Source: Escherichia coli (GTDB lineage Bacteria; Pseudomonadota; Gammaproteobacteria; Enterobacterales; Enterobacteriaceae). Taken from it: 64,000 nucleotides of DNA. The position numbers are program-made. Shown here piece by piece: positions 10,762 through 13,700 of this stretch. Within the stretch, counting starts at the first letter, position 1. Each line of letters opens with the position of its first letter. Location of the stretch: assembly GCF_013122565.1 (NCBI RefSeq), contig NZ_CP053258.1. One strand, given 5' to 3'.

Positions 10762-13700
10762 TTATCGTTATCATCTACAAAGACCACCAGCATAACAAAT
10801 CCGTGGTCGGTGGCAAAAAAAGCAGATTTCGCTTATTAAAACTGCATATTGATTGAAGTTTGAATAAACGCGCGATTTTTTAAAAAAGTTTGTTGACCTC
10901 AGGTCATGATTTCCCTAAATTAGCGCCCGTTCCAGCAAGACAGGAACGACAATTTGGTGAGGTGTCCGAGTGGCTGAAGGAGCACGCCTGGAAAGTGTGT
11001 ATACGGCAACGTATCGGGGGTTCGAATCCCCCCCTCACCGCCAGATTACAAGCGCATGTTATTGTTTAACATGCGCTTTTTTATTTATCCTTCCAGACAG
11101 TATGCCACCGGGTATGCCATCTGAAACCGGTTTATATGCCCCACGATCATATCTTATCGGACAATTTCCGATCTTTGAGCATACTGGCAAAGCTATACTG
11201 CCAGCATGTCAGGATAGTGTTTTGCGATAATATCATTCAGTCTGTCAACCAGTTCTGGCTTCCTGAACGTGATGTGCGCAGAGCCCTTCTTAAAGTATTT
11301 AATAATGAACATCTCATCTTCATAGCATTCTTTTCCCTGAAGAGACCGGATGTGATCGTCCAGATGAATAGTTATGTTTTCCCTGTTGTCGGGGATCGGT
11401 TTGCCGCTGAACAGATGCAGCATTCTTTCCAGGTCGGCAAGTCTATCTGCCTGTTGCCCGGTGATAAGATGCAATCCCCACCGGTCCCACCTCACCAGAT
11501 TGTTGACGATAATTTTATTGCCAAATTTACAGGGGCAATTGGTTTTGTAATTCCAGCTCAACCCTCTGAAGAGGTTGATCACTCCTCGCTCAAACACTTC
11601 ATCCTTATTCTGGTGTAGCTGCTCAAACGTACTCAGAATATTCTCTTCACTGATTTCCGGAAAATTATCGTACTCCAGTGATCGGTACCATGTATCACGG
11701 GCCTGTGCATCCATTAAGGAAAGCATCCCGGAGCATTGCATCAGGTCACGCCAGATTTCGCGATCGAGATTGCGGGTGATAGCTTTCATTGCTGTATCAG
11801 GTTTATCCATGAGCCAGCAGCCGCAGCGAAAATCCTGTTTCATGGCCCAGTCCAGTGCGGTTTTACCGCCAATACTTTCTGTCATTGCTGATATTTCAGT
11901 CAGTTGCCGGATAAGTGTGTCGATTTGCAGCAGTGTAGTCTTTCGCACAGCCAGAATGTGGCTGACTGAGGTGGAGCAGATAATGTCCGTATGTCCGTTG
12001 ACCACTTCCAGGCGGGAGATTGTGATATCTGACATCATCGTTTTTCCTTTTGGTTTATAAACGAAAACGCCAGCCCTGTTCAGGCTGACGTCATTGGAAT
12101 GAGACTGACGCCATAACGTCGGATGAGTGTGACAACCAGACGGCGGAACGTTTTTGACAGGCCCAGGCGTTTAAGCCGCAGAACCGGGTATGACCACGCA
12201 TCGGTACGTAACAGATATCCGCTGCCTGTAAAATGAATCCATTCTGATTCGCCGGTGTCATTCGTCTGATGCGACAGCGAGTACAGCCAGGCGTTGTCTT
12301 TTGCCGTGATATGCGCGGTACTGCAGCGTATGCCGGTCAGGGCAGCAAATGGTGGCGTGCAGTCTGTTGAGGCTCGGTCAGATTCATCAACAACACGAAG
12401 GGAGTGACCGTTATCGCAGACCACGTTAATCAGTTCAGCAAGCTCAATACCATCGACGTCAACGACAATGCGCCCCATGTTCAGTGCCTGTACGTTAACG
12501 CTGTCGGCTTCCAGCGTCAGGGCCAGTTTCATCATTTCGCCTGCGGATGCTTACCCAGGGTTATGTTATTTACCGTTCTGTAATTGTCGCGGGTCATCAG
12601 GCCGGTCGCCCTGCGAGCCCGGAGGATATCGATGCTGTTTATTAACTGAGAGCGGGTACAGGCGCTGAATCCCGGCTGGTCGGTACGCACCAGCGCGTAT
12701 TTTTCCACGAGAAAGTTCACCGCAACACACAGTGAAATACCTGCCTCAATATGCTGCTCAATCACACGTTCATCAGCGAACGGTGTGTCATTCAGCGTGA
12801 GGCCGTAGTGCTGGTCCAGCAGACGGCCAAGCAGTATCTGCCAGATGGTGACGGGAGACGGGCAGCGCGATGCCTCCCGTACGTATGTATCGGGTAATGT
12901 TTTCATACTAAAGTTTTTCCTGATATGCAGAGATGAGAAATGGGGAAGTGGCGTGGTGAAAACACCAGGCCGGAGCAGAAGGTTATTCTGATGATTTACT
13001 TTTTCGTTTCGGGCGTCGGATAAACAGCCATATAAACGTAACCTCGACTGCCGAGGGTATCGGCTTTGCAGGTCAGCCCTTTTGCATACAGCGTGACGGT
13101 ATGCTGATGGCGGGGATTCAGCTCACCGCTGGTGAGCATGAGTTCCAGTTGTTTCATCAGTAGCGGAAAGGCCTGGTCCAGATGGTACGCATCCGCGTCG
13201 CTGAACCGGCCTCTGATACCGGCGCGGTCGGCAAGGTAATGCAACCGGTTACTCTCCTGCACCAGACGTGCCCCGAAACAGGGCGTCACGGTGCAGGGCA
13301 GCCCCCACCAGGGGTGGCTGTTGTTGTCATCGGGATGAGTTGTCCCGGAGAGTGTGTCTGACACGATAAAATCCTCACAAATAATCAGTTAAGAATGGTC
13401 CGGTAGCGGCGATAATTCTGTTCATCAGAATGCCAGTCCTGATTCAGTACAGGGTGACGCTCATCAGCCGGACATACGGGCCAAAAACTGTCCTTACGGC
13501 GTTCAGCAAACACGGCCAGCACACCGGGAATATCCTGTACTTCACTACCGGTATACGTCTCAGCACTGCCGTGCCAGCGGTACTTACCGGTGCAGAACGG
13601 AAAAAGACGGGATGCAGGATGCTGTTGGTGAATACGCATGGCTTCACCACGGGTGATAATTTTCATAATGGGATACCTCTGAAGACAGAAGATAAAAGTG

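What the first reader, a model, noticed from the sequence alone, without database searches (positions are those of the whole stretch)
12532..13364. Intact type IV toxin-antitoxin pair (CbtA/CbeA family) on the island
Seen in sequence: both genes are full length with family-defining motifs and a coupled downstream DUF5983-like gene. Established knowledge: CbtA-family toxins inhibit FtsZ/MreB polymerisation and CbeA-family antitoxins counteract them. The module probably stabilises the island.
Basis: partly seen in the sequence, partly recalled or inferred. Interest (0 to 1): 0.3.

Follow-up and report, generated by a model that had tools for sequence, protein, structure and literature searches.

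The report
Ordinary CbtA/CbeA toxin-antitoxin pair
[quoted passage not shown] It sits at the edge of a decayed 31-kb island next to the serX tRNA gene, both genes are full length, and the toxin has one unusual amino-acid change that might weaken it.

Summary
On the minus strand, 12996-13364 encodes a 122-aa CbeA/YeeU antitoxin and 12532-12906 a 124-aa CbtA toxin. Both match their Pfam models end to end (E 1e-52 and 7e-61). They are 88.5% and 89.5% identical to the characterised K-12 pair, with the same gene order and an 89-nt spacer. Both exact proteins are already in NCBI under these names. The block occurs in 4958 of 5426 complete E. coli genomes, median 3 places each. This is already known.

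Three qualifications apply:
- **Toxin.** It keeps F65, the FtsZ determinant. It carries D61V at a near-invariant Asp (83 of 85 relatives have D), one helical turn from F65. It has Cys15 instead of K-12's Arg15. So it is intact as an ORF, but activity is unproven.
- **Downstream DUF5983 gene.** It is translationally coupled (ATGA overlap). However, a 297-bp deletion cut off its conserved last 17 residues and removed the DUF957 gene.
- **Island stabilisation.** This is unsupported. The island integrase is frameshifted before its catalytic Tyr. Published work shows paralogous antitoxins cross-neutralise, antitoxin genes can be deleted, and the operon is not autoregulated.

Most likely mechanism, by homology: the toxin binds FtsZ and MreB, and the antitoxin counteracts by bundling those filaments.

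The parts
12996..13364 (-). cbeA/yeeU-type antitoxin gene, 122 aa, GTG start
   Evidence: PF06154 1-100/101, E 1.1e-52. PDB 2H28/2INW (YeeU) E 1e-73 to 7e-74. 88.5% identical to K-12 CbeA and identical to WP_024210831.1 of strains PapRG-06-5 and 100181, apart from how the GTG start is translated. The exact sequence is on 157 contigs in the public collection.
12907..12995 (-). 89-nt antitoxin-toxin spacer with an AGGAAA Shine-Dalgarno-like motif 11 nt before the toxin ATG
   Evidence: Sequence read directly. The K-12 spacer is 88 nt and closely similar. It holds a small hairpin, GGCCUGGUG-UUUU-CACCACGCC, but folding is unremarkable (z -0.92). No Rfam match.
12532..12906 (-). cbtA-type toxin gene, 124 aa, F65 kept, C15, D61V
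   Evidence: PF06755 1-112/112, E 7e-61. 89.5% identical to K-12 CbtA, 58-62% to YkfI/YpjF. Position 61 is D in 83 of 85 relatives, and V only in this exact protein. The exact protein is in NCBI (KOA35438.1, QJU24618.1) on 8 contigs. The AlphaFold2 model puts D61 and F65 in one helix, residues 59-73.
12080..12535 (-). DUF5983 gene, translationally coupled to the toxin (ATGA overlap) and 3'-truncated: 151 aa instead of 162-163
   Evidence: PF25638 DUF5983_N 1-55/56, E 8.6e-32. PF19419 matches only 3-73/90. The alignment shows loss of the conserved C-terminal HLDASAECLPGLPTFDW.
12091..12102 (.). junction of a 297-bp deletion (between 12096 and 12097, at a GAATGA direct repeat) that removed the DUF957 gene and the DUF5983 3' end
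   Evidence: Pairwise alignment with E. coli PapRG-06-5, NZ_CP048605, and the annotation of that genome. Strain 100181 carries the same deletion.
12066..12092 (-). terminator-like hairpin followed by a T-run, just after the truncated DUF5983 stop codon
   Evidence: Consensus scan only.
13385..13666 (-). yeeT (DUF987) immediately upstream, with a frameshifted C-terminus
   Evidence: PF06174 1-63/65. The K-12 YeeT tail GPYVRLMSVTLN lies in another frame. PGAP marks it 'frameshifted' in both close relatives.
13729..15917 (-). upstream co-oriented backbone genes: RadC/JAB, antirestriction (ArdB/KlcA type), DUF932
   Evidence: Pfam matches. The same order is seen in K-12 CP4-6, CP4-57 and CP4-44.
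11193..12038 (-). DUF4942 gene, last gene before the island boundary
   Evidence: PF13708 1-190/190, E 1.8e-70.
10956..11043 (+). tRNA-Ser(GGA) (serX), the island's insertion site
   Evidence: ARAGORN, Rfam tRNA, flanking ghrA/ycdX as in K-12 order.
42413..42430 (+). distal direct repeat of the tRNA 3' end (17 of 18 nt), the far island boundary
   Evidence: the repeat finder family D5, paired with 11030-11047.
41160..42251 (-). P4-type tyrosine integrase pseudogene; the frameshift separates the catalytic-Tyr segment
   Evidence: Pfam Arm-DNA-bind_3 and Phage_int_M match, but Phage_integrase covers only 23-145/172. The ...EAAYHRTDLL... segment continues in another frame.

Best explanation
This is a typical chromosomal copy of the CbtA/CbeA (YeeV/YeeU) type IV toxin-antitoxin module. 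It forms part of the conserved backbone block DUF932 - antirestriction - RadC - DUF987 - cbeA - cbtA - DUF5983 - (DUF957) - DUF4942. That block sits at the integrase-distal end of CP4-like integrative islands. Here the island is about 31.4 kb, decayed, and inserted at serX.

Inferred mechanism, by close homology to the K-12 proteins:
1. The toxin binds the H6/H7 loop of FtsZ through the surface that includes F65, and binds the flat protofilament face of MreB. This blocks both division and elongation.
2. The antitoxin does not sequester the toxin. It binds FtsZ and MreB and promotes filament bundling, which offsets the toxin.

Shown here: family membership, full-length ORFs, gene order, translational coupling to DUF5983, the island context, and the decay of neighbouring genes.

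Inferred, not shown: toxicity, neutralisation and targets. The D61V change at a near-invariant residue, one helical turn from F65, may weaken the FtsZ-directed activity of this allele.

The module's current role is most likely that of a tolerated, weakly expressed passenger of the island backbone. It is unlikely to be an active addiction device.
For: - Pfam matches are end to end for both proteins, and the antitoxin matches solved YeeU structures at E ~1e-73.
- Identity to K-12 CbtA is 89.5% and to K-12 CbeA 88.5%. Order, spacing and the GTG start with its preceding AGGATTTTATC are the same.
- NCBI's pipeline gives these names to the same genes in the closest genomes, and the exact sequences are already deposited.
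- The same gene block lies at the extreme end of K-12 CP4-6, CP4-44 and CP4-57.
- Mechanism comes from the literature. F65S abolishes FtsZ binding and R15C abolishes MreB binding. YkfI and YpjF have C15 naturally (PMC5624674). CbeA bundles FtsZ and MreB rather than binding the toxin (PMC5624674; PMC5371832).
- D61 is Asp in 83 of 85 relatives and shares a predicted helix (residues 59-73) with F65.
- Island decay is shown by the integrase frameshift, the yeeT frameshift and the 297-bp deletion.
Against: - No experiment exists on this allele.
- D61V and C15 could mean reduced or altered activity. R15C in K-12 CbtA removes MreB binding, although C15 is the majority state in the family (55 of 85).
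- The toxin structure model has only moderate confidence (pLDDT 69, pTM 0.48), and no solved toxin structure exists.
- No sigma-70-like promoter was found on the minus strand between 11000 and 17500, so expression is unknown.
- The type IV 'no direct contact' model rests on a small number of studies.
Confidence: 0.82

Rival explanations
1. Addiction module: the pair stabilises the island by killing or arresting cells that lose it.
For: - Toxin-antitoxin pairs on ICEs and islands can do this, for example MosAT on SXT and the pairs on ICESsuHN105 (cited in PMC5371832, and PMC12548467).
- Type IV pairs are mostly found on genomic islands.
- The module sits at the island edge.
Against: - The island integrase is a pseudogene, so excision is already improbable.
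- The block occurs at a median of 3 places per E. coli genome, and the K-12 antitoxins cross-neutralise all three toxins. This would defeat post-segregational killing.
- K-12 antitoxin genes can be deleted without lethality, and there is no autoregulation.
- No stabilisation experiment for this family turned up in the searched library.
- Only 3 of 5426 complete genomes carry most of this island.
Confidence: 0.12
2. Decaying module: the toxin is already attenuated (D61V, possibly C15) and the pair is drifting towards a pseudogene along with its neighbours. It would then have no function of its own.
For: - D61V lies at a near-invariant position and is seen only in this exact protein among 85 relatives.
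- All 3 codon differences from the closest relative's toxin are nonsynonymous, with none synonymous, while the antitoxin is identical.
- The neighbours yeeT, DUF5983, DUF957 and the integrase are all damaged.
Against: - Both ORFs are full length with good translation signals.
- Three changes in 375 bp is not clearly above the island-wide divergence of 0.3-0.6%. Clustering of SNPs in the toxin is marginal (P about 0.05).
- The effect of D61V has not been measured.
Confidence: 0.25
3. Stress-physiology module: a low-level toxin/antitoxin balance modulates oxidative-stress tolerance, antibiotic tolerance or biofilm formation. This is compatible with the best explanation.
For: Deleting all three K-12 toxin genes lowered oxidative-stress resistance, and deleting the antitoxin genes raised early biofilm formation (PMC5371832).
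Against: The effects are modest and were seen only in K-12 multi-deletion strains. Nothing in the sequence bears on this reading.
Confidence: 0.3
4. Anti-phage abortive-infection system.
For: Many toxin-antitoxin systems defend against phage, and AbiE is a type IV example (PMC3985639, listed). The neighbouring genes include a WYL regulator and a GTPase with a weak LeoBC-like match.
Against: No PADLOC model matches the toxin, the antitoxin or DUF5983. No paper in the searched library reports defence by CbtA/CbeA.
Confidence: 0.07

Closest known systems
CbtA/CbeA (YeeV/YeeU) of E. coli K-12 cryptic element CP4-44
   Same: - Same Pfam families.
- 89.5% (toxin) and 88.5% (antitoxin) identity.
- Same lengths, 124 and 122 aa.
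- Same order, with the antitoxin first.
- GTG start on the antitoxin.
- 88-89-nt spacer.
- A DUF5983-type gene overlapping the toxin stop codon.
- Upstream RadC and DUF987 genes.
- Position at the end of the element.

   Different: - The toxin N-terminus (residues 6-15) differs, giving R14-C15 instead of S14-R15.
- D61V.
- K-12's downstream yeeW is a 64-aa remnant, whereas here the gene is 151 aa and truncated only at the extreme C-terminus.
- The island sits at serX and carries different cargo, a fimbrial operon rather than flu/Ag43.
YkfI/YafW (CP4-6) and YpjF/YfjZ (CP4-57) of E. coli K-12
   Same: - Same two families.
- C15 and F65 are present in the toxins.
- In CP4-6 the module abuts the tRNA (thrW) end of the island, as here with serX.

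   Different: - Only 58-62% (toxins) and 61-65% (antitoxins) identity.
- Those proteins are shorter, 109-113 and 105 aa.
- Their spacers are about 20 nt.

The same locus in E. coli PapRG-06-5 (NZ_CP048605) and strain 100181 (NZ_CM128595)
   Same: - Same serX island end at 99.6-99.7% DNA identity.
- Identical antitoxin.
- Strain 100181 shares the 297-bp deletion.

   Different: - Their toxins have H8, T24 and D61, where the window has Y8, I24 and V61.
- PapRG-06-5 keeps DUF957 but has a stop codon inside DUF5983 and an IS3 element in the integrase.

Membership tests
CbtA toxin family (Pfam PF06755; type IV toxin-antitoxin toxin) | Full-length match to the family profile above the curated cut-off | tested here: met
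   1-112/112, 203.6 bits against a cut-off of 25, E 7e-61
CbtA toxin family (Pfam PF06755; type IV toxin-antitoxin toxin) | Phe65, required for FtsZ binding in CbtA, YkfI and YpjF | tested here: met
   F65 is present and invariant in alignments of relatives. Its role comes from PMC5624674.
CbtA toxin family (Pfam PF06755; type IV toxin-antitoxin toxin) | Arg15, required for MreB binding in K-12 CbtA | tested here: inconclusive
   The window has C15 with R14. R15C abolishes MreB binding in K-12 CbtA. However, YkfI and YpjF carry C15 naturally, and C15R had no effect on MreB interaction in either. C is the majority state, 55 of 85.
CbtA toxin family (Pfam PF06755; type IV toxin-antitoxin toxin) | Near-invariant Asp61 in the helix that carries F65 | tested here: not met
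   The window has Val (codon GTT where relatives have GAT). 83 of 85 relatives have D, 1 has N, and the only V is this exact protein. The functional consequence is unknown.
CbtA toxin family (Pfam PF06755; type IV toxin-antitoxin toxin) | Growth arrest with lemon-shaped, filamentous or spherical cells on overexpression; binding to FtsZ and MreB | not testable with these tools
   Needs induction and two-hybrid experiments.
CbeA/YeeU antitoxin family (Pfam PF06154) | Full-length profile match and close similarity to the solved YeeU fold | tested here: met
   1-100/101, E 1.1e-52. 2H28/2INW at E ~1e-73 over residues 1-121.
CbeA/YeeU antitoxin family (Pfam PF06154) | Encoded immediately upstream of, and co-oriented with, a CbtA-family toxin | tested here: met
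   89-nt spacer, same strand.
CbeA/YeeU antitoxin family (Pfam PF06154) | Neutralises the toxin by bundling FtsZ and MreB filaments without binding the toxin (the type IV criterion) | not testable with these tools
   Known only for K-12 CbeA, as cited in PMC5624674 and PMC5371832.
Addiction (post-segregational killing) module that stabilises a mobile element | The element can be lost by its own excision machinery | tested here: not met
   The integrase is frameshifted before the catalytic Tyr.
Addiction (post-segregational killing) module that stabilises a mobile element | No other source of antitoxin in the cell | tested here: inconclusive
   There is only one copy in the 64-kb window. E. coli genomes hold a median of 3 such blocks, and the antitoxins cross-neutralise. 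The rest of this genome was not available.
Addiction (post-segregational killing) module that stabilises a mobile element | A labile antitoxin, a stable toxin, and measurably lower loss of the element | not testable with these tools
   Needs half-life and island-loss assays.
DUF5983 (PF25638 + PF19419), the usual third gene of the block | Both domains complete, 162-163 aa, with the conserved C-terminal HLDASAECLPGLPTFDW | tested here: not met
   The N domain is complete, but the C domain matches only 3-73/90. The protein is 151 aa and the conserved tail is replaced by PMTSA.

The most novel reading that the evidence does not exclude
Together, the D61V toxin allele and the C-terminally truncated DUF5983 would make a natural variant. 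In this reading the toxin has lost its FtsZ-directed activity, or all activity, through a change on the F65 helix face. DUF5983 would be a functional third component of the cbeA-cbtA operon, since it is nearly always translationally coupled to cbtA, and its truncation would have been tolerated, or selected for, because the toxin is attenuated. That would point to D61 as a new determinant of the toxin-FtsZ interface and would give DUF5983 a role.
Probability: 0.12. Interest if true: 0.35.

Novelty: already known. Interest (0 to 1): 0.08.

Why it matters
It matters little beyond correct annotation. The family, its targets and its association with CP4-like islands are all published, and these exact proteins are already deposited and named.

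Two modest points could be useful:
- A natural D61V change next to the FtsZ-binding F65 gives a cheap, testable probe of the toxin-FtsZ interface.
- The state of this locus (dead integrase, damaged neighbours, cross-neutralising paralogues elsewhere in the species) is a caution against assuming that any toxin-antitoxin pair on an island stabilises that island.

Tried and rejected
- **NCBIfam** scan of the toxin, antitoxin, DUF5983, DUF987 and DUF4942 proteins gave no hits, so naming rests on Pfam and PGAP annotations.
- **PDB sequence search with the toxin** gave only spurious repeat-protein matches. Foldseek of the AlphaFold2 toxin model against the PDB gave nothing below E = 4.
- **AlphaFold2 of full-length DUF5983** on a shallow alignment (all homologues at least 84% identical) failed, with pLDDT 36. 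No inference about its fold is possible.
- **PADLOC** gave no defence-system match for the three module proteins.
- **Promoter scan** found no sigma-70-like site on the coding strand, and fewer sites overall than in shuffled sequence.
- **The spacer** folds no better than shuffles and has no Rfam match.
- **A second copy in the window** was not found. The only extra signal is a weak CbeA-like stretch inside an ISL3 remnant (E 0.003), taken as chance.
- **An excess of nonsynonymous change in the toxin** was considered as evidence of selection and rejected as not significant against island-wide divergence.
- **A phage origin** (the 'CP4 prophage' label) was checked. The toxin matches 1 of 50,697 phage records, a 3.2-kb fragment, and 66 of 72,556 plasmids. 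This is a chromosomal-island module, not a phage gene.
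Full report
**Observation**

The finding's coordinates, 12532-13364, run exactly from the stop codon of one minus-strand ORF to the start codon of another.

- ORF 12532-12906(-) encodes 124 aa and matches Pfam CbtA_toxin over the whole model (1-112/112, 203.6 bits, E 7e-61).
- ORF 12996-13364(-) encodes 122 aa from a GTG start and matches CbeA_antitoxin (1-100/101, E 1.1e-52). It also matches the solved YeeU structures 2H28 and 2INW at E about 1e-73 over residues 1-121.
- The plus-strand ORFs in the interval are 48-66 aa and were not examined further, because the minus-strand ORFs match their Pfam models end to end.
- A third ORF, 12080-12535(-), starts with an ATG that overlaps the toxin's TGA as ATGA (read). 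It matches DUF5983_N completely and the DUF5983 C-terminal domain in part.

**Comparison with the characterised K-12 modules**

I fetched the three K-12 loci and aligned the proteins.

| Window protein | vs CbtA/CbeA (CP4-44) | vs YkfI/YafW (CP4-6) | vs YpjF/YfjZ (CP4-57) |
|---|---|---|---|
| Toxin | 89.5% | 58.4% | 62.4% |
| Antitoxin | 88.5% | 61.0% | 64.8% |

The lengths, the antitoxin-first order, the GTG start with the same preceding AGGATTTTATC, and the spacer (89 nt here, 88 nt in K-12, closely similar) all match the CP4-44 pair. The spacer holds a small hairpin but folds no better than shuffled sequence. Rfam finds nothing in the module.

**How common it is**

- The 1.7-kb block matches 4958 of 5426 complete E. 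coli genomes, with a median of 3 places per genome, almost all chromosomal.
- NCBI's pipeline names the genes 'TA system toxin CbtA family protein', 'type IV toxin-antitoxin system YeeU family antitoxin' and 'DUF5983 family protein'.
- The exact toxin, antitoxin and even the truncated 151-aa DUF5983 protein are already in the public collection, on 8, 157 and 10 contigs respectively.
- The toxin is nearly absent from phage records (1 of 50,697) and rare on plasmids (66 of 72,556). Despite the historical 'CP4 prophage' label, this is a module of chromosomal integrative islands.

**Is the pair intact?**

At ORF level it is. At residue level there are two points to note.

- *Experimentally defined determinants.* Heller et al. 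showed that F65S abolishes FtsZ binding in CbtA, YkfI and YpjF. They also showed that R15C abolishes MreB binding in K-12 CbtA, and that the double mutant is non-toxic. YkfI and YpjF naturally carry C15, and C15R changes nothing in them (PMC5624674).
- *This allele.* The window toxin keeps F65. It has R14-C15 where K-12 has S14-R15. Among 85 relatives C15 is the majority state (55 C, 19 R), so this is probably not a defect.
- *D61V.* Position 61 is Asp in 83 of 85 relatives, including the 58-69%-identical Klebsiella/Enterobacter and K-12 paralogues. It is Asn in one, and Val only in this exact protein. The codon is GTT where relatives have GAT.
- *Structural context.* An AlphaFold2 model (pLDDT 69 overall, 75-90 over residues 11-70) places D61 and F65 in a single helix, residues 59-73. 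They are therefore one turn apart on the same face. The inference is that D61V could weaken the FtsZ-directed activity. This has not been tested.
- *Divergence.* Against the two nearest genomes the toxin differs by three codons, all nonsynonymous (Y8/H, I24/T, V61/D), while the antitoxin is identical. Three changes in 375 bp is not clearly above the island-wide divergence of 0.3-0.6%, so I do not claim selection.

**The 'coupled downstream DUF5983-like gene'**

The coupling is real, but the gene is damaged.

- Alignment with E. coli PapRG-06-5 shows a 297-bp deletion in the window between two GAATGA repeats, with the junction near 12096/12097. It removed the whole DUF957 gene and the last 17 codons of DUF5983.
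- Those 17 residues (HLDASAECLPGLPTFDW) are nearly invariant in 162-163-aa family members. Here they are replaced by PMTSA.
- Strain 100181 shares the deletion.
- The regular association of DUF5983 downstream of cbtA is already noted in the literature (PMC10790755; bioRxiv 10.64898/2026.06.09.728211). Its function is unknown.
- My attempt to model it failed (pLDDT 36).

**Context**

- The module lies 1.5 kb inside an island inserted at the 3' end of tRNA-Ser(GGA), serX, at 10956-11043, next to ghrA/ycdX.
- An 18-nt repeat of the tRNA end (11030-11047 and 42413-42430) bounds the element, which is about 31.4 kb.
- The genes from DUF932 through antirestriction, RadC/JAB, DUF987, cbeA, cbtA and DUF5983 to DUF4942 are co-oriented. 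The same block sits at the extreme end of K-12 CP4-6, CP4-44 and CP4-57. It is therefore island backbone, not cargo.
- The island is decayed. The P4-type integrase (41160-42251) is frameshifted, so the catalytic-Tyr segment lies in another frame. yeeT has a frameshifted tail. Several IS remnants are present.
- Only 3 of 5426 complete genomes carry most of this island.

**Mechanism**

By close homology (inference), the toxin binds the FtsZ H6/H7 loop and the flat face of MreB and so blocks division and elongation. The antitoxin binds FtsZ and MreB and promotes bundling rather than sequestering the toxin (PMC5624674; PMC5371832). Nothing in the sequence contradicts this, apart from the open question about D61V.

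**The 'stabilises the island' claim**

I found no stabilisation experiment for this family in the searched literature. Several points argue against it.

- The island's own excision enzyme is dead.
- E. coli genomes usually carry several copies of this block.
- YafW, YfjZ and CbeA each neutralise all three K-12 toxins. The antitoxin genes can be deleted, and the operon is not autoregulated (PMC5371832).
- Reported phenotypes are modest stress and biofilm effects.
- No anti-phage model matches.

I therefore rate active island addiction as unlikely, at about 0.1.

**Verdict**

Three corrections apply:
1. The toxin carries a substitution at a near-invariant residue.
2. The third gene is truncated.
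3. The stabilisation role is unsupported.

Interest is low. The only mildly useful lead is D61V as a natural probe of the toxin-FtsZ interface.

Noticed in passing
window 12091-12102 (junction near 12096/12097): A 297-bp deletion relative to E. coli PapRG-06-5, between GAATGA direct repeats. It removed the DUF957 gene and the last 17 codons of DUF5983. Strain 100181 shares it.
   Followed up: yes
window 13385-13666 (-): The yeeT (DUF987) gene has a frameshift after about residue 61, giving a 93-aa ORF with an unrelated tail. The normal tail (GPYVRLMSVTL-) is readable in another frame.
   Followed up: partly
window 40990-42251 (-): The island's P4-type integrase is frameshifted. The ORF ends at 363 aa, and the segment with the catalytic Tyr (...EAAYHRTDLL...) continues in a different frame. 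In PapRG-06-5 the same gene is also split by an IS3 element.
   Followed up: yes
window 11030-11047 and 42413-42430: An 18-nt direct repeat (17 of 18 identical) of the serX tRNA 3' end delimits an island of about 31.4 kb between ghrA/serX and ycdU.
   Followed up: yes
window 23993-29190 (+): A chaperone-usher fimbrial operon (fimbrial subunit, chaperone, 867-aa usher, 382-aa fimbrial protein) is the main cargo of the island. It is flanked by IS66, ISL3 and IS256 remnants at about 22-35 kb.
   Followed up: partly
window 17845-19678 (-): A WYL/HTH regulator (PADLOC WYL model, E 4e-18) sits next to a GTPase-family protein with a weak LeoBC-like PADLOC match (E 6e-9). Both are typical CP4-like backbone genes (YfjR/YfjP-like).
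   Followed up: no
window 15947-17361 (-): Two ORFs of 312 aa and 136 aa with signal-peptide-like N-termini have no Pfam match. They are annotated 'hypothetical protein' in the closest genome.
   Followed up: no
window 37711-39561 (+) and 35841-37367 (-): A 616-aa ORF with no Pfam or PADLOC match lies beside a DUF3987/YfjI-family protein and a small HTH gene, near the integrase end of the island.
   Followed up: no
window 34047-34187 (-): Weak tblastn similarity to the CbeA antitoxin (41% over 59 aa, E 0.003) inside an ISL3 transposase remnant. Probably chance.
   Followed up: no
window 43010-43133 (-) and 5264-5355 (+): Rfam matches above the gathering score: the STnc490 Hfq-binding sRNA just outside the island's distal repeat, and the ES056 sRNA in the csgB-csgD intergenic region.
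   Followed up: no
window 43330 to about 64000 (-): Beyond the island, ycdU is followed by a lipid or polyketide-like cluster (ACP S-malonyltransferase, beta-ketoacyl synthases, ACP, FabZ-like dehydratase, ABC transporter, LolA-like protein). After that comes a two-partner secretion pair (ShlB/FhaC-type transporter and a filamentous-haemagglutinin-type protein). This is judged from the annotation of the collinear PapRG-06-5 region.
   Followed up: no
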